Shown here: piece by piece, positions 3,593 through 47,655 of the stretch
Layout: the number at the start of each line of letters is the position of its first letter
How positions within the stretch are numbered: the first letter of the stretch is position 1
The notes under the pieces: generated by a model
What the model was told of the DNA's origin: nothing
The model's database searches: none
Seen by the model: the letters and a program-made list of their open reading frames with translations, nothing else
From: an uncultured Planctomycetaceae bacterium
Lineage (GTDB): Bacteria; Planctomycetota; Phycisphaerae; SM23-33
Direction of reading: 5' to 3'
Assembly: GCA_964536835.1 (NCBI GenBank)
Contig: CAZIAZ010000002.1
Coordinates: 4,912-68,911, forward strand
Length of the DNA: 64,000 nucleotides
Made by a program: the position numbers and the translations under genes

Positions 3593-4704
3593 TTTTCCTC
3601 CACCGCCAGAGCGGAAGCTGAAAATTTGAGACACTGCCGCGGAGTCATGCCGTGTATCCGCAGTTGTTCCAGCGGACTTTCCGGCTGAGCTGTTTGACAT
3701 GAAAGATATATGGCGTCAATCACTGCATGCGTAAGGAGATTTTCAGCTGCGGAACATTCATAATGCAAGACGCCTTCATTAATGGAATTTAAAAAATTCT
3801 GTACCTGCCGGACGTAAATTTCATGCGGCGGTTCTTTGGATTCAAAATAGTCAAGCACGTCGCCATCCGGATTTCTCAGGCGGCAGGTCTCGAAATTCGC
3901 AACTATCGACCCGCCGCGGCCATGCAGTGAAAATTCCTCGCTCGCCGGGCCGGTTATTCTCGACGTGACCACAGCCGCCATCGTGTCATCCTTGTATTTC
4001 AGTGTCGCCGAGGCGGTATCGTCGGTATCGTGAATCGAACCCGCAATGCCCTGCGTTTCATCGAGCAGGTTTCGTTTCCTCGCAATCATGTTTGCGCCGT
4101 ACACTTCTTCCGGCAGGCCGAGCGTCCATATCAGCAGGTCTATCGGATGATAGCCTACTTCCAGCAGTGCACCGCCGCCGGCTGATACTCTGTCGGCTCG
4201 CCAGTTAAGCTGGCTGCCCCAGTTAAACAGATAATGCGCACGCGCCAGGAAAACATCGCCTATGCTGAGTTTGCTTTCTGCAAGTTTACGATATGATTGC
4301 GAGAATCGGCGTTGTGTGCCGACGGCTAGTTTCAGGCCGGCTTTTTCAAACATTCGCACGAAATTGACAGCCTCCCCCAAATTTCTCGCCAGCGGAGCTT
4401 CCTTCCAGACGTGAACGCCATTCTGTGCGCAAAATCCCAACAACTCGCCCCATGCCATCGGAGGAGTTGCGACAAAAACGGCAAGCGGTTTTTTCTTCAA
4501 AATCATCTGCCGATTATCGGTATAACCCTCAACTCCCGCATCGGTTGCGACATTTTGCGCCACATCGGAAAGTTTGTCCGCCACCGCCACGACTTCCACA
4601 TTGTCGCACTGTTGAAGTGCCTTGAGCGTACGCTGTCCGAATGCGCCCAACCCTATCACGGCAACTGGAATTCTTGAGTCACTCATATTGCAAGAGTATC
4701 CCAC
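3589..4704 (-). CDS. Gfo/Idh/MocA family NAD(P)-dependent oxidoreductase
   Basis: 371 aa. The N-terminal Rossmann motif is IPVAVIGLGAFGQR. The C-terminal region has the alpha/beta fold typical of this family. Confidence 0.7.
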   Translation of the reverse strand: MGYSCNMSDSRIPVAVIGLGAFGQRTLKALQQCDNVEVVAVADKLSDVAQNVATDAGVEGYTDNRQMILKKKPLAVFVATPPMAWGELLGFCAQNGVHVWKEAPLARNLGEAVNFVRMFEKAGLKLAVGTQRRFSQSYRKLAESKLSIGDVFLARAHYLFNWGSQLNWRADRVSAGGGALLEVGYHPIDLLIWTLGLPEEVYGANMIARKRNLLDETQGIAGSIHDTDDTASATLKYKDDTMAAVVTSRITGPASEEFSLHGRGGSIVANFETCRLRNPDGDVLDYFESKEPPHEIYVRQVQNFLNSINEGVLHYECSAAENLLTHAVIDAIYLSCQTAQPESPLEQLRIHGMTPRQCLKFSASALAVEEK

Positions 4705-5871: not shown

Positions 5872-7125
5872 TTGACCGTGAAAGTGCCAGCTAATGCATA
5901 TATTTTAGAGTGTCCTGAGGTTCCGTCTTTGCCAGATATTGAGAAAACGGTTTATGCCGCACTCGCTAATCCGATTGAATCGCCATCGCTTGAGCAAATG
6001 ATAAAAAAACGCAAGCCGCAAACCGTTGCCATTACAATTTCCGACATTACCCGCCCTGTGCCCAATCGTGTTTTTCTTCCGGTAATTCTTAACATTCTTA
6101 ACAGATGCGGCATAAGAGATTCACAGATTGCGATTATCGTCGGTACTGGTATGCATCGGCCAAGTACGGCAGAGGAACATTGTTATCTTGTCGGAGCAGA
6201 TATAATGTCTCGCGTAGCAGTGGTAGACCACCATGCGACAGATGTTGCTACATTGAAAAAAGTATGTGATGACCCGCCGGTTAGTGTATGCAGACAGTTT
6301 GCAGAAGCTGACTTTAAAATTGTAACAGGATATATTGAAGCCCATTTTATGGCTGGTTTTTCCGGCGGACGAAAAGGCGTGTGTCCTGCACTTGTGGATT
6401 TGCAGACGATTCGTAATTTTCATGGATATGGCACATTATGTTCACCATATGCAGATACGGGAAACTTGCAAAATAATCCATGTCATGAAATCGCTTTAAA
6501 AGTGGCACATGCAGTAGGTGTGGATTTTCTTTTCAACGTTGCGATAAACAATAAACGCGAAATAGCAGGCATTTTTTGCGGCGAATTGAATGCGGCTCAT
6601 CTGGCTGGCTGTAAACAGGTTGCGGCCTGGACTACGGCAAAAACTGACGGCCCGTATGACTTGGTGATAACCAATGGTGGAGGCTATCCGCTGGATCAGA
6701 CGTTTTATCAGACGGTTAAAGGCATGTGTACTGCACTGCCTGCGATTGGAGAACATACCGTATTATTGCAGGCTAGCGCATGCAATGAAGGCTTGGGTTC
6801 AAAAGAATATGCAAACACGATATTGCGTTATGGCCATCAATGGCAAAAATTTCTGTCTGATATTTCTGATAGCAGGGATTTTACCGTTGACCAATGGCAA
6901 TTTCAGATGCAGACGCGAGTGATAAGTCGAATAGGTATTAAGAACCTGTGGTTTGTTACCGACGGAATTGAAGCAAATATACTCGAAAAACTTTGTTTGA
7001 CACCTGTTTATGACAAAGGCAATGCGAGCACGAAATTACAACAGGTCGTGGATAGGTTTGTATCCGATAATCCGTGCGCACGAATAGCCGTAATCCCTGA
7101 AGGTCCATATACAATTTTAAAATAG
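5872..7125 (+). CDS. LarA-like (lactate racemase N-terminal domain, DUF2088) protein
   Basis: 417 aa with a TTG start. The N-terminal region (PQTVAITISDITRPVPN...IIVGTGMHRP) resembles nickel-pincer-dependent racemase/epimerase LarA homologues. GC is visibly lower than the flanking genes. Confidence 0.5.
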   Translation: MTVKVPANAYILECPEVPSLPDIEKTVYAALANPIESPSLEQMIKKRKPQTVAITISDITRPVPNRVFLPVILNILNRCGIRDSQIAIIVGTGMHRPSTAEEHCYLVGADIMSRVAVVDHHATDVATLKKVCDDPPVSVCRQFAEADFKIVTGYIEAHFMAGFSGGRKGVCPALVDLQTIRNFHGYGTLCSPYADTGNLQNNPCHEIALKVAHAVGVDFLFNVAINNKREIAGIFCGELNAAHLAGCKQVAAWTTAKTDGPYDLVITNGGGYPLDQTFYQTVKGMCTALPAIGEHTVLLQASACNEGLGSKEYANTILRYGHQWQKFLSDISDSRDFTVDQWQFQMQTRVISRIGIKNLWFVTDGIEANILEKLCLTPVYDKGNASTKLQQVVDRFVSDNPCARIAVIPEGPYTILK

Positions 7126-44516: not shown

Positions 44517-44975
44517 ATGGTATTGGCGTTGAAGGACAACTCGGCTCCGCTAGAATTGGTAGTTACCGGCGAGGTTGCCAGTTGGCTGCCGGCGCTGGAG
44601 CAGGTGGTAGGGCCGAATTGGCTCAAGACGCGGCGTGTGCGCAGCGGCCATGAATTGTTGGAGGTCGTCCGCCACGGCCGAGCCGACGCTGCCGTATTGG
44701 ACGACGAATGCGACTGGGACCTGGATGTGCTGCAAATGCTCCGGATGCTTCGCCAGCTTGACAGGTCGTTGCAGGTTGTGGTCGTTACACACCACACGGA
44801 AAGGCAGTGGATGGAAGCTGCGTTGAAGCTGGCGGCATACAGCGTTTTGACCAAGCCGCTGGGCTTTGAGCCGCTGGTACGACAGATTCACGGCATAATG
44901 CTCAAAATGCACAAGCAGCTTAACTCGCAGCCTACCGCAATCATGAAACTTGATGATTGGAATAAAAACTGGTAA
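44517..44975 (+). CDS. stand-alone atypical (pseudo-)receiver domain protein
   Basis: REC-like layout has a candidate phospho-Asp in VLDDECDWD, a VVVVT segment and a K in TKPLGFEPL. The N-terminal acidic pair is missing. Confidence 0.4.
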   Translation: MVLALKDNSAPLELVVTGEVASWLPALEQVVGPNWLKTRRVRSGHELLEVVRHGRADAAVLDDECDWDLDVLQMLRMLRQLDRSLQVVVVTHHTERQWMEAALKLAAYSVLTKPLGFEPLVRQIHGIMLKMHKQLNSQPTAIMKLDDWNKNW

Positions 44976-44981
44976 AAATTT

Positions 44982-45168
44982 GCCTGTCCGCCCGACGGCG
45001 GATGTTTTTTTTCTACGATTTTTGTTAAAAAAACGTAGGATTAAGACGGACATAATGAATCTCTACGGGTTAAAACCCGTAGCATCATAGTCATCAGGCT
45101 TTCGCCTGTCCGCCTCACGGCGGATACTTTCATCTACGGTTTAAAAACCGTAGAATTAAGACGGACAT
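44982..45168. repeat. two ~70-bp hairpin-rich direct repeats (gcctgtccgccNNacggcggat...ctacgNttt..aaaNcgtagRattaagacggacata) flanking a perfect hairpin (ctacgggttaaaacccgtag)
   Basis: Read directly. Each unit contains a GC stem (tccgcc/ggcgga) and an AT-rich stem (ctacg..cgtag). The unit ends are inverted (gtccg...cggac). Confidence 0.65.
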
Positions 45169-45182
45169 ATTAAAAAAACGCG

Positions 45183-45216
45183 TTGAAAAGGCAAAAGGAA
45201 ATAACATCGTTTTGAG
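45183..45216 (+). promoter_or_regulatory. possible heat-shock (sigma-32-like) promoter for groES (TTGAAA-N14-aaCATcgT)
   Basis: The -35 TTGAAA matches the sigma-32 consensus. The -10 is only a partial CCCCATNT match. SD gaggaga at 45214. Confidence 0.25.
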
Positions 45217-45226
45217 GAGACAGAAA

Positions 45227-45538
45227 ATGGCTAAAGCCAAATGCACGAAATGTAAAATTCGCCCCCTGGGTGACAAGGTCCTGGTAAAGCGTCTGGAGGC
45301 GGAATCCATCACAGCCGGCGGCATAGTCCTGCCCGATACCGCCAAGGAAAAACCCAAGCAGGGAACGGTTCTCGCCGTCGGCGAAGGCAGCCTGAACAAG
45401 GACGGCAGCCGTACCCCCCTTCAGGTCAAAACCGGCGATACTGTCCTGTTTACCAGCTACGCCGGAACTACCGTCAAAATCGACGGCGACGAACTCATGC
45501 TCATGGATGAGAGCGACATCCTGGCAATCATTGACTAA
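45227..45538 (+). CDS. groES: co-chaperonin GroES
   Basis: [44 protein letters not shown]. 103 aa. Confidence 0.9.
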
Positions 45539-45633
45539 ATAATTGTTAGGACAGCTTTCTGACTTGAGGATAGGATTCCTCTAGCCGCCACTCAAGCTGC
45601 CCATTTAGTTATCTCTTTTCAGGAGTATTAATT

Positions 45634-45924
45634 ATGGCAAAGGCAGCTGGAATTTTCATGGATGTAACAACGAGATGGGCGGAAAAGCTTCAAGTCGATA
45701 TGACGGTTCTCGAATGGGCATTCGACAATCTTAGACATAATGCATCTAACGAAGGATGTCATAATTTCCCATCAAGAGATGATGTAGCCTCTAATGACAT
45801 TTTCTTTAATGCAGTTCGCCGAATGTATGAAATAAGAACTGGCAGAGTGCTTGAAAAAAGTGAATATCCTATGCTCAGAAGAATGATTCTAAAAGTACAT
45901 AAACAAGGTAAAACCCCAAGATAA
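45634..45924 (+). CDS. hypothetical 96-aa protein in a low-GC insertion between groES and groEL
   Basis: Own SD (aggagt). The start context nearly duplicates that of groEL (aggagNattaNNNATGGCAAAG). GC is visibly lower than in both chaperonin genes. Confidence 0.35.
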   Translation: MAKAAGIFMDVTTRWAEKLQVDMTVLEWAFDNLRHNASNEGCHNFPSRDDVASNDIFFNAVRRMYEIRTGRVLEKSEYPMLRRMILKVHKQGKTPR

Positions 45925-45946
45925 TTGCAGCTAGGAGATTATTGAA

Positions 45947-47584
45947 ATGGCAAAGAAGAAAATAATATTTGACGTAGATGCCCGTTCGAGCATTCTCAAG
46001 GGCGTCAAACAGCTGGCGAGAGCCGTCAAGGTCACCCTCGGTCCTACCGGCCGTGTTGTAGTACTGCAGAAAAGTTTCGGCAGCCCGACCGTCACAAAAG
46101 ACGGCGTGAGCGTAGCCAAGGAAATAGAGCTGGCCGACCCGAATGAAAACATGGGCGCCCAGATGGTCAAGGAAGTCGCGTCAAAGACGTCGGATATCGC
46201 AGGCGACGGCACGACGACCGCGACCATTTACGCCGAAGCCATCTTTGAAGAAGGCCTTAAAAATGTAACCGCCGGTGCAAATTCAATGGAACTCAAGCGC
46301 GGCATCGATAAAGCCGTCGCCGCAATCATCGACGAACTCGGCACACTCTCCAATCCCGTCAAGAGTTCAAAAGAGGTCGCACAGGTCGGCGCCTGCTCGG
46401 CCAACCAGGACGCCGAAATCGGCAAAATGATTGCAGATGCAATGGACAAGGTCGGCAAGGACGGCGTAATCACGGTCGAGGAAGGCAAATCGCTCGACAC
46501 CTATGTTGACCTCGTCGAAGGCATGCAGTTCGACAAGGGCTACATCAGCCCCCATTTCGTGACGGACATGGCCGCCATGGAATGCAAACTTGAAAAACCA
46601 CTTATCCTGATATATGAGAAAAAACTCACAGCCATCAAGGACCTTGTGCCGCTTTTGGAAAAAATCGCACAAGCCGGCCGGCCGCTCGTCATCATCGCGG
46701 AAGACGTCGAAGGCGAGGCGCTGGCGACGCTGGTAGTGAACCGTCTGCGCGGCACGTTCCAGTGCGTGGCGGTCAAGGCCCCGGGCTTCGGCGACCGTCG
46801 CAAGGAAATGCTGCGTGACATCGCAACGCTCACCGGCGGCAAAGCCATCATGGAAGACATGGGCATCAGCCTTGAAAACATCCAGATGACCGACCTCGGC
46901 ACAGCCAAGGAAATCCGCGTCGCAAAAGATACCACGACCATAATCGAAGGCGCAGGCAAGGAAAGCGACATCAGAGGCCGTATCGAACAGATAAAGACCC
47001 AGATTGAAACCACCACCAGCGATTATGACCGTGAAAAACTCGAAGAGCGTCTGGCCAAGCTCGCCGGCGGCGTCGCCCGCATCAACGTCGGCTCAGCCAC
47101 CGAAGTCGAGATGAAGGAAAAGAAAGCCCGCGTCGAAGACGCCCTGCACGCCTGCCGGGCCGCAGTTGAAGAAGGCATTCTGCCTGGCGGCGGCACAGCT
47201 GTGCTGGCTGCCGTCAAAGTCCTCGACAAGGTCAAGACGTCAAACGAAGACGAAAAGACCGGCGTGGATATAATTCGCCGCGCATTGTCGGCGCCAATCA
47301 AGCAGATAGCCGCCAACAGCGGTCTGGACGGCAGCGTCGTAGCGATGAAAGTTATGGAAAATCCCGAAAAAATCGCCAATTTCGGCTATAACGCGTTAAC
47401 CGGCAAATATTGCGACCTCGTGAAAGACGGCGTAATTGTGCCGACCAAGGTTGAACGCTCAGCCCTGCAGAACGCCGCCAGCGTTGCCGGCCTTCTGCTG
47501 ACCACTGACGCTGTCATCTCCGATTTGCCTGAAAAGAAAGACAAACCCGCCATGCCCGGCGGCGGCATGGATGACATGATGTAA
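45947..47584 (+). CDS. groL: chaperonin GroEL
   Basis: Canonical GroEL sequence throughout, with the C-terminal GGM-type tail (PGGGMDDMM). Confidence 0.95.
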
Positions 47585-47605
47585 TCAAACATCCCCTCAA
47601 AATAA

Positions 47606-47655
47606 AAGGCCTGTCGATATTTATCAAAAATGTCGGCAGGCCTTTTTGTTTTGTT
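47606..47655. terminator. intrinsic terminator after groEL, possibly bidirectional with gyrB
   Basis: Imperfect 13-bp stem (ggcctgtcgatat / atgtcggcaggcc) followed by tttttgttttgtt. Confidence 0.55.

What the first reader, a model, noticed from the sequence alone, without database searches (positions are those of the whole stretch)
45540..45946. Low-GC 96-codon ORF inserted between groES and groEL, with a duplicated translation-initiation context
groES and groEL are almost universally adjacent, typically with a spacer under 100 bp. Here they are separated by about 410 bp. This spacer contains a well-formed ORF (45634..45924) with its own SD. Its GC content and codon usage are clearly poorer than those of the flanking chaperonin genes. 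The ORF's start context (aggagtattaattATGGCAAAG) nearly duplicates that of groEL (aggagattattgaaATGGCAAAG). That pattern suggests an insertion or recombination event that copied the groEL ribosome-binding region. The product has no motif I recognise. Its sequence is MAKAAGIFMDVTTRWAEKLQVDMTVLEWAFDNLRHNASNEGCHNFPSRDDVASNDIFFNAVRRMYEIRTGRVLEKSEYPMLRRMILKVHKQGKTPR. It would be co-expressed with the heat-shock chaperonins. A complex hairpin (cttgagg..cctc..cactcaag) immediately after groES may attenuate read-through.
Basis: seen in the sequence. Interest (0 to 1): 0.7.

Follow-up and report, generated by a model that had tools for sequence, protein, structure and literature searches.

The report
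Orphan small gene inside groESL operon
A real, selection-maintained 96-codon gene of unknown function sits between the chaperonin genes groES and groEL in one group of Phycisphaerae bacteria; its only relatives lie next to DNA methyltransferase and phage-defence genes, so a nearly universal two-gene operon has picked up a third gene here.

Summary
groES (45227..45538) and groEL (45947..47584) are 407 nt apart. The gap holds a 96-codon ORF (45634..45924) with its own AGGAG. Its GC3 is 0.29, against 0.68 in both flanking genes.

The ORF is a real gene, here called X. X belongs to a rare orphan family of about 17 clusters among 5.8 billion proteins, with no Pfam, NCBIfam, PHROG, PADLOC, PDB or fold match. 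dN/dS is 0.12-0.22.

At least seven further lineages carry X at the same position, downstream of a conserved response-regulator gene. In most of them X starts 2-8 nt after the groES stop codon, which suggests translational coupling. A separate X subfamily lies directly after a Dam-type methyltransferase. Other copies lie near a DruE-like helicase, an MTase-Mrr fusion or an integrase.

The closest GTDB relatives lack X. A sister clade carries an unrelated 67-77-aa gene (Y) at the same site.

The insertion is therefore real but old, not recent. The "duplicated RBS" is only AGGAG plus a 9-nt ATGGCAAAG repeat. The proposed hairpin folds no better than shuffled sequence. No terminator separates the three genes.

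Function is unknown. My best guess is a small binding protein captured from a mobile DNA-modification or defence gene pool and now co-expressed with the chaperonin.

The parts
44517..44975 (+). Stand-alone response-regulator receiver gene (152 aa), the conserved upstream neighbour of groES
   Evidence: Pfam Response_reg E=1e-10. Homologues lie upstream of groES in X-bearing loci L009, L012, L014, L017 and L019, and also in X-less loci L020 and L021. It therefore belongs to the ancestral locus and not to the insertion.
45227..45538 (+). groES (Cpn10), 103 aa
   Evidence: Pfam PF00166 E=1.1e-35. GC3 is 0.683.
45539..45633 (+).
   Evidence: Sequence. Folds are not better than shuffles. No terminator-like site was found. 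GC is 0.40.
45634..45924 (+). Gene X: 96-aa orphan protein, the middle cistron
   Evidence: ORF. The family has about 17 clusters. Purifying selection is shown. AF2 gives a helical-bundle model with pLDDT 81.9. Invariant residues are G6, V11, W15, R34, A37, G41, C42, P46, R48, A52, Y65, R82, R83, K90, G92 and P95. GC is 0.385 and GC3 is 0.289.
45925..45946 (+). 22-nt spacer with the groEL SD (AGGAG, 45933..45937)
   Evidence: Sequence.
45947..47584 (+). groEL (Cpn60), 545 aa. Its first 9 nt (ATGGCAAAG) repeat the first 9 nt of X.
   Evidence: Pfam PF00118 E=5e-76. The 9-mer direct repeat is at 45634-45642 and 45947-45955, its only two occurrences in the window.
47604..47646 (+). Intrinsic-terminator-like hairpin (19 pairs plus T-rich tail) that ends the groES-X-groEL unit
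   Evidence: It is the only strong + strand terminator-like site downstream of groES.

Best explanation
Shown:
- 45634..45924 is a genuine protein-coding gene (X). It is the middle cistron of a three-gene groES-X-groEL transcription unit.
- X belongs to a rare orphan family of ~96-aa soluble proteins predicted to be helical, with one invariant Cys in a G-C-x-x-[FY]-P-x-R-[DE]-[DE] loop.
- The family has two habitats. One is the groES-groEL spacer of a Phycisphaerae subclade. The other is DNA-modification and defence-island neighbourhoods, most often directly downstream of a D12 (Dam-type) methyltransferase.

Inferred:
- X was captured from that accessory gene pool into the chaperonin operon, either once with later losses or twice independently. 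It has been kept there by selection since before lineages with about 80% GroEL identity diverged.
- It is transcribed with groES and groEL from the heat-shock promoter.
- In most lineages it is translated by ribosomes re-initiating 2-8 nt after the groES stop codon. In the window's lineage it has its own AGGAG.

Guessed mechanism:
- X is a small binding or adaptor protein, not an enzyme. Its partner is common to both habitats.
- In this operon it most plausibly modulates or exploits the chaperonin, or regulates the operon.
- I give about 0.35 to a direct chaperonin link. The confidence of 0.6 given for this explanation refers to the core description: a real, old, selection-maintained third cistron of accessory-pool origin.
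For: Real gene:
- The L001 orthologue is 70% identical, with pN 0.19 against pS 0.83.
- Unsaturated pairs give dN/dS of 0.12-0.22 in both habitats.
- 16 residues are invariant across 16 sequences.
- The AF2 model has pLDDT 81.9.

Conserved position:
- groES-X-groEL is found in L001, L008, L009, L012-L017, L019, L103-L106 and L109.
- L010 shows X followed by the groEL N-terminus.

Single transcription unit: there is no terminator-like site between the genes, and a strong one follows groEL.

Coupling: X starts 2-8 nt after the groES stop, with no SD, in L008, L009, L012, L017, L105 and L109.

Insertion rather than ancestral gene:
- X is absent from the 7-kb groESL loci fetched for the nearest GTDB relatives L020 and L021, and from those of 78 other genomes.
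- The median groES-groEL spacer is 45.5 nt.

Accessory-pool relatives:
- L011 and L108 carry a HicB-domain protein, then a D12 MTase, then X.
- L101 carries the same MTase C-terminus followed by X.
- In L102 an apparent integrase C-terminus, read by eye, lies next to X.
- L107 carries an N6_N4 MTase fused to Mrr_cat nearby.
- L018 carries X after a DruE-like helicase C-terminus (PADLOC E=1.9e-22).
- Sources.

Phylogeny: the X tree has three clades, (W, L001) 200/200, MTase-linked 200/200, and the other groESL copies.
Against: - No homology or fold match gives a function.
- The same invariant residues occur in groESL-linked and MTase-linked copies, so the biochemical activity is probably not chaperonin-specific.
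- X is dispensable or absent in L020 and L021, which nest among X-bearers in the GroEL tree. Monophyly of X-bearers gets 5/200.
- X evolves much faster than GroEL (38-70% against 78-84% identity). It stays AT-rich relative to its flanks in all eight loci, as passenger or accessory genes often do.
- pI ranges from 4.8 to 9.6, so there is no consistent charge signature.
- Transcription and translation are inferred from sequence only.
- The family was not found in phage, plasmid or IMG/VR collections, so a mobile origin rests on neighbourhoods alone.
Confidence: 0.6

Rival explanations
1. Passenger gene. X is a defence-island or DNA-modification accessory gene whose function has nothing to do with protein folding, for example a regulator, sensor or partner of methyltransferase or nuclease modules. 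It merely uses the groESL operon as a strongly expressed, stress-induced, hard-to-lose harbour. The groES-groEL spacer of Phycisphaerae would then be a permissive landing site.
For: - Five members sit in MTase, DruE or integrase neighbourhoods with the same invariant residues.
- An unrelated small gene Y occupies the same spacer in sister-clade genomes L023-L026.
- L018 (after DruE) nests inside the groESL-type X clade (143/200 with L105), which implies movement between contexts.
- There are two junction geometries. In W and L001, X abuts groEL and has its own spacer. In the others it abuts the groES stop. These match two X clades and two GroEL clades, so two independent insertions are plausible.
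- X is persistently AT-rich and evolves fast.
Against: - The position has been retained over deep divergence with dN/dS about 0.2.
- Tight coupling to the groES stop codon in six lineages is more typical of functionally linked cistrons.
- No copy was found on phages, plasmids or viral contigs.
Confidence: 0.35
2. Autoregulator. X is a small nucleic-acid-binding regulator of the operon it sits in. It would act as a feedback regulator of groESL in place of the missing HrcA/CIRCE system, and as a controller of methyltransferase expression in the other habitat.
For: - No CIRCE operator is found anywhere in the 64-kb window, even with 3 mismatches allowed.
- Invariant basic residues are R34, R48, R82, R83 and K90.
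- Lineage-specific repeats lie upstream of groES in every locus.
Against: - No HTH, RHH or other DNA-binding family is detected.
- pI is 4.8-6.6 in 9 of the 15 members computed.
- The upstream repeats differ completely between lineages, whereas X's invariant surface does not.
Confidence: 0.12
3. One reading: a recent horizontal insertion that copied the groEL ribosome-binding region, with a hairpin after groES attenuating read-through.
For: - The AT-rich block 45539..45946 has GC 0.36-0.40 against flanks of 0.56.
- A 9-nt direct repeat ATGGCAAAG brackets exactly X plus the 22-nt spacer, and it is unique in the window.
- L001 also has identical 9-mers (ATGGCTAAG) at both starts.
Against: - The orthologue in L001 has saturated dS and the same arrangement, so the event predates that split.
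- The repeat does not extend beyond 9 nt.
- Met-Ala-Lys is a family N-terminus outside groESL as well.
- The sequences upstream of the ATGs are unrelated in L001.
- The hairpin gives z = -0.64 and +0.17, has no U-run, and is not conserved.
Confidence: 0.05
4. Spurious ORF: a non-coding AT-rich spacer that happens to be open.
For: Small size, atypical codon usage, and no database annotation beyond "hypothetical".
Against: - About 17 homologous clusters share a conserved length of about 96 aa and have invariant residues.
- pN is far below pS.
- The AF2 fold is confident.
Confidence: 0.01

Closest known systems
Canonical bicistronic groESL (cpn10-cpn60) operon
   Same: The flanking genes, their order and strand are the same. 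There is a single downstream terminator and an SD-led groEL.
   Different: A third, unrelated cistron lies between the two genes. The spacer is 407 nt against a median of 45.5 nt in 80 comparator loci. No CIRCE operator is present. A stand-alone receiver gene is the conserved upstream neighbour.
RbcX, a small helical assembly chaperone encoded between rbcL and rbcS in cyanobacteria (from general knowledge; analogy only)
Phage- or mobile-element-encoded chaperonin accessories (T4 gp31, RB49 CocO; from general knowledge)
   Same: The concept is similar: an accessory-genome protein that works through GroEL. X's relatives lie in accessory neighbourhoods.
   Different: X has no Cpn10 domain. It is not found in phage collections. 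No interaction with GroEL has been shown.
Controller (C) proteins and other small regulators of restriction-modification modules
   Same: Small size and tight linkage to a DNA methyltransferase gene in L011, L101 and L108.
   Different: No HTH_3/Xre or other DNA-binding domain is detected. X lies downstream of the methyltransferase, not upstream of a nuclease. pI is acidic to near-neutral (4.8-6.6) in 9 of the 15 members computed.
Catalytic-cysteine half-domain of ubiquitin-like E1 enzymes (UBA1, UBA2, UBA3)
   Different: The scores are weak and cover only a sub-bundle of a large domain. Foldseek finds nothing significant. There is no adenylation domain or partner in the neighbourhood. Alignment of the Cys residues could not be checked.

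Membership tests
groESL operon | A Cpn10 gene directly upstream of a Cpn60 gene on the same strand | tested here: met
   PF00166 E=1e-35 and PF00118 E=5e-76, both on the + strand.
groESL operon | Short non-coding spacer (tens of nt) between groES and groEL | tested here: not met
   The spacer is 407 nt and contains a conserved gene. The comparator median is 45.5 nt, and 74 of 80 are <= 150 nt.
groESL operon | One transcription unit (no internal terminator) | tested here: inconclusive
   The consensus scan finds no terminator-like site between groES and groEL and a strong one after groEL. There are no expression data.
HrcA/CIRCE-controlled heat-shock operon | CIRCE inverted repeat TTAGCACTC-N9-GAGTGCTAA upstream | tested here: not met
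   0 matches in the 64 kb with up to 3 mismatches.
Cpn10/GroES-like co-chaperonin | Cpn10 beta-barrel domain | tested here: not met
   No Pfam hit for any of 14 members at E <= 10. The predicted fold is mostly helical.
Restriction-modification controller / HTH regulators | Recognisable HTH or RHH DNA-binding domain | tested here: not met
   Pfam, NCBIfam and PADLOC give no such hit.
Known anti-phage defence proteins (PADLOC) | Match to a defence-system profile | tested here: not met
   Only two single-member chance-level hits, E = 0.03 and 0.08. Neighbours in L018, L107 and L108 do match DruE and MTase profiles.
Phage protein families (PHROGs, INPHARED, IMG/VR, BFVD) | Sequence or fold match to a viral protein | tested here: not met
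   The best PHROG hit is E=0.057 over 17 residues. tblastn against phages finds nothing. The viral-contig scan finds nothing. The best BFVD hit is E=1.3.
Mobile insertion with target-site duplication or a homing endonuclease | Flanking direct repeats beyond chance, plus a nuclease or transposase | tested here: not met
   The only repeat is a 9-nt ATGGCAAAG that is also coding sequence for Met-Ala-Lys. There is no nuclease domain.
E1 catalytic cysteine domain | Significant structural match, with the catalytic Cys in an equivalent position | tested here: inconclusive

The most novel reading that the evidence does not exclude
In Phycisphaerae the groES-groEL junction may be a recurrent capture site for small accessory genes: X in two clades with two different junction geometries, and the unrelated Y in a sister clade. 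X may be a previously unknown chaperonin-coupled factor, made roughly one-for-one with GroES by termination-reinitiation. It could act as an adaptor or modulator of GroEL. One lead is the flexible, conserved N-terminal G-x-[FY]-[LM]-G-V segment, which from memory resembles the GroES mobile-loop and peptide motifs that bind the GroEL apical groove. Alternatively it could be a guard that links chaperonin status to DNA-modification or anti-phage modules. Either reading would explain why the same protein also accompanies Dam-type methyltransferases and a DruE-like helicase.
Probability: 0.2. Interest if true: 0.8.

Novelty: new variant of a known kind. Interest (0 to 1): 0.55.

Why it matters
groES-groEL is one of the most conserved gene pairs in bacteria, and the chaperonin is usually regarded as a closed two-component machine. 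A third cistron that selection has kept, and that is translationally coupled to groES, would be a candidate lineage-specific chaperonin accessory or regulator. This phylum has no recognisable CIRCE control at this locus.

X's only relatives sit beside DNA methyltransferases and defence genes. A second unrelated small gene occupies the same spacer in a sister clade. Together these suggest traffic between the accessory (defence or modification) gene pool and a core heat-shock operon. That idea is directly testable by binding assays and by reconstitution in E. coli.

If X turns out to be only a passenger, the locus still shows how an essential operon can serve as a safe harbour for small genes.

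Tried and rejected
Searches for a known family or fold, all without a significant hit:
- Pfam, NCBIfam, PHROGs and PADLOC on X alone and on all 14 members.
- PDB sequence profiles built from 2 and from 14 sequences.
- Rfam on 44800..46100 gave only chance-level hits.

Searches for more family members:
- The search for related loci with the 2-sequence alignment found nothing in genome or metagenome contigs, because it used lineage-specific N-terminal patterns. As a result the genome-contig collection was never scanned with a family-wide X pattern.
- Viral contigs, INPHARED phages and PLSDB plasmids gave no match.
- A third profile search added only three clusters.
- Literature searches on groES/groEL/Planctomycetes and on the phrase "between groES and groEL" found no report of such a gene.

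Ideas rejected:
- Spurious ORF, because of the selection evidence and the family.
- Recent HGT scar, because the orthologue has saturated dS and the same GC deficit.
- Terminator or attenuator hairpin, on fold z-scores and the terminator scan.
- Duplication of the groEL RBS beyond 9 nt.
- Pseudogenisation in L019. The 72-aa product is a frameshift variant at a homopolymer, and L105 carries the intact 96-aa gene.
- JGI's name "ribosomal protein L11 methylase PrmA" for P0002, which no profile search supports.

Full report
**1. What is in the sequence**

The window carries groES at 45227..45538 (Cpn10, E=1e-35) and groEL at 45947..47584 (Cpn60, E=5e-76), both on the + strand. They are separated by 407 nt. 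AGGAG lies 8 nt upstream of its ATG.

The ORF has GC 0.385 and GC3 0.289. Both chaperonin genes have GC 0.56 and GC3 0.683. Forty-four long genes of the window average GC3 0.568 (sd 0.052). Only 0.36% of 97-codon genic segments are as low in GC3, and no 291-nt genic segment is as low in total GC. In 80 groESL loci fetched from GTDB genomes the median groES-groEL spacer is 45.5 nt, and 74 of 80 are at most 150 nt.

**2. It is a real gene**

A search of 5.8 billion proteins found only the protein itself (NCBI: hypothetical protein, Phycisphaerae bacterium MAG) and one relative at 70% identity. A full HMMER pass over 1.84 billion representatives, followed by two profile iterations, raised the family to about 17 clusters. 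Nearly all are 94-99 residues long; the few shorter entries are mis-called starts, a frameshift variant or an unchecked 87-aa cluster. There are no fusions and no Pfam annotation.

Between the window and L001, non-synonymous divergence is 0.19 and synonymous divergence is 0.83, which is saturated. Pairs with unsaturated dS give dN/dS of 0.12-0.22. Sixteen positions are invariant in 16 sequences: G6, V11, W15, R34, A37, G41, C42, P46, R48, A52, Y65, R82, R83, K90, G92 and P95.

With 14 sequences, AlphaFold2 gives a compact bundle of four to five helices at pLDDT 81.9. The N-terminal dozen residues are less confident. I call the gene X.

**3. Where its relatives sit**

Every relative with enough flanking DNA falls into one of two habitats.

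*Habitat A: groES-X-groEL.* This arrangement usually follows a stand-alone response-regulator gene. It is found in L001, L008, L009, L012-L017, L019, L103-L106 and L109. L010 shows X followed by the groEL N-terminus. GroEL in these loci is 78-84% identical to the window's, GroES is 65-78%, and X is only 38-70%.

*Habitat B: DNA-modification and defence neighbourhoods.*
- L011 and L108 carry a HicB-domain protein, then a D12 Dam-type methyltransferase, then X. By eye the HicB-domain protein has a GIY-YIG-like motif, which Pfam does not call. In L108, X overlaps the end of the methyltransferase gene.
- L101 has the same methyltransferase C-terminus followed by X.
- In L102, by eye, a tyrosine-recombinase-like C-terminus lies next to X.
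- L107 has an N6_N4 methyltransferase fused to an Mrr nuclease domain 1.6 kb upstream.
- L018 has X right after the C-terminus of a DruE-like (Druantia) helicase with an MrfA Zn-binding domain.
- Sources.

No copy was found in IMG/VR, INPHARED or PLSDB.

**4. History**

The nearest GTDB groESL loci lack X within the 7 kb fetched. L020 has a 14-nt spacer and L021 has about 100 nt. All 78 more distant loci also lack it. The upstream receiver gene is present with or without X, so it is ancestral to the locus.

In a bootstrapped NJ tree of GroEL:
- The X-bearers plus L020 and L021 form one clade (196/200).
- (W, L001) is a pair (182/200).
- L020 and L021 group with the remaining X-bearers (152/200).
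- Monophyly of the X-bearers alone is rejected (5/200).

The X tree has three clades: (W, L001) at 200/200, the methyltransferase-linked copies at 200/200, and the other groESL copies. The DruE-linked L018 nests in that third clade.

The two groESL clades also differ in anatomy. In W and L001, X lies 95-141 nt after groES and 17-22 nt before groEL. In L008, L009, L012, L017, L105 and L109, X starts 2-8 nt after the groES stop codon with no SD, and ends 26-48 nt before groEL. In L009 the true start is the ATG at 3977, not the annotated one.

The data therefore fit two scenarios: one old insertion followed by loss in L020 and L021 and remodelling of the junction, or two independent insertions. 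They do not fit a recent event.

A further point in favour of a permissive or favoured site is that genomes L023-L026 in the sister clade carry a different conserved ORF of 67-77 aa (Y) between groES and groEL. The Y copies are 45-57% identical to each other, have no Pfam match, and are unrelated to X.

**5. Composition**

X has lower GC3 than both flanking genes in all eight groESL loci:

| Locus | X GC3 | Flanking GC3 |
|---|---|---|
| W | 0.29 | 0.68 |
| L001 | 0.42 | 0.83-0.85 |
| L010 | 0.24 | 0.58 |
| L012 | 0.53 | 0.90-0.95 |
| L019 | 0.52 | 0.86-0.89 |
| L008 | 0.62 | 0.81-0.87 |
| L017 | 0.68 | 0.88-0.91 |
| L009 | 0.73 | 0.78-0.91 |

Part of this reflects the strong codon bias of the chaperonin genes. 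In W the value also lies far below the other genes of the same window. For L001 and L010 I had no such background, so there the comparison is only with the flanks. W and L001 have diverged to saturation at synonymous sites yet both keep the deficit. The AT-richness is therefore maintained, by relaxed codon selection under AT-biased mutation or by selection for low translation or structure. It is not a leftover of recent transfer. This last step is inference.

**6.

The two start contexts share AGGAG and the 9-mer ATGGCAAAG. That 9-mer is the only direct repeat flanking the insert, and these are its only two occurrences in the window. L001 likewise has ATGGCTAAG at both starts, but the sequence upstream of the two ATGs is unrelated. 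The other lineages show no resemblance. Met-Ala-Lys or Met-Ala-Arg is a common N-terminus of the family outside groESL as well. A copied ribosome-binding region is therefore not supported. Microhomology at ATGGCNAAG during insertion, or local conversion, remains possible for the W/L001 lineage.

The hairpin after groES folds no better than shuffled sequence (z = -0.64 and +0.17). It has no U-tract, is not called by the terminator scan, and is absent from L001. The only strong terminator follows groEL, at 47604..47646.

**7. Function**

No search gives a function. Pfam, NCBIfam, PHROGs, PADLOC and PDB profiles are empty. Foldseek against PDB and BFVD is not significant.

The protein is soluble and has no predicted membrane segment. 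One Cys is invariant, in the loop G-C-x-x-[FY]-P-x-R-[DE]-[DE]. pI varies from 4.8 to 9.6.

The same residues are invariant in both habitats, so the molecular activity should be the same in both. Its partner should then be something present in both settings.

My best reading is that X is a small binding or adaptor protein from the accessory DNA-modification and defence gene pool. It has been captured as a third cistron of the heat-shock chaperonin operon and is co-translated with GroES. I put about 0.35 on X acting on or through the chaperonin. I put about 0.35 on X being a functionally unrelated passenger that exploits a strongly expressed, indispensable operon. I put about 0.12 on X being an autoregulator. 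No CIRCE is present in the window.

**8. Novelty**

Two literature searches found no description of a gene between groES and groEL in this or any phylum, and the family carries no name in any library. I rate the locus as a new variant of a known kind: a tricistronic groESL operon with an orphan middle gene.

Interest is moderate to good for chaperonin and defence-island specialists. It is limited by the absence of any functional handle and by the uncultured hosts.

Noticed in passing
L023:2458-2691, L024:2699-2902, L025:376-579, L026:1945-2148: A second, unrelated conserved small ORF (Y, 67-77 aa, for example MDSTALRTALKELNGQRDLRIEFAGSHPCIVKRALLVPQESDGLVKVTDGSHIYVFDAERVAWIEIG) lies between groES and groEL in four Planctomycetota/Phycisphaeraceae MAGs of the sister clade. 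The copies are 45-57% identical, have no Pfam match, and have GC3 close to the flanking genes.
   Followed up: partly
window 44979-45174: The region between the response-regulator gene and groES has two copies of a composite element about 75 nt long (CTGTCCGCC-N4-GGCGGAT hairpin, CTACG...CGTAG hairpin, AAGACGGACAT), plus a third CTACGGG..CCCGTAG hairpin. Rfam finds nothing. It could be a promoter or operator, or the terminator of the upstream gene.
   Followed up: partly
L109:4400-4695, L008:1-120, L023:1760-2056, L020:1920-2216: Each related lineage has its own short tandem repeats just upstream of groES (gcattgagcattggg..., ttagcattcggcatt..., ccgaatg..., cagggattattggatt...). They are unrelated to each other and to the window's repeats.
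   Followed up: no
L108:3000-5276; L011:76-1880; L101:3-507: A conserved three-gene module: a HicB-domain protein, a D12 Dam-type methyltransferase, and X. By eye the first protein has a GIY-YIG-like motif (GLYLF...SQTxNLxHRxERH), which Pfam does not call. The module may be an uncharacterised modification or restriction module.
   Followed up: partly
L018:1-1932: An X copy lies 45 nt downstream of the C-terminus of a DruE-like (Druantia) helicase with an MrfA Zn-binding domain. By eye that C-terminus ends in a DUF559-like tail. By sequence this X nests within the groESL-type clade.
   Followed up: partly
L019:906-1231 versus L105:5001-5291: The 72-aa cluster representative P0006 is a frameshift variant at a TTTTCCCCCC run. 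A contig from another sample (L105) carries the intact 96-aa gene.
   Followed up: yes
window 5872-7125: A LarA-like lactate racemase gene (Lar_N and LarA_C) is the only other clearly low-GC gene in the window (GC 0.436, GC3 0.37). It may have been acquired horizontally.
   Followed up: partly
P0002 / L001:386-679: JGI names this X orthologue "ribosomal protein L11 methylase PrmA". No profile search supports that name.
   Followed up: yes
window 45227-45260; L009:3617-3691; L020 around 2190-2216: GroES in this clade carries a basic N-terminal extension: [10 protein letters not shown] in the window, about 25 extra residues in L009, and MAKAKSKSKAAKT in L020. The extension is present whether or not X is.
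   Followed up: no
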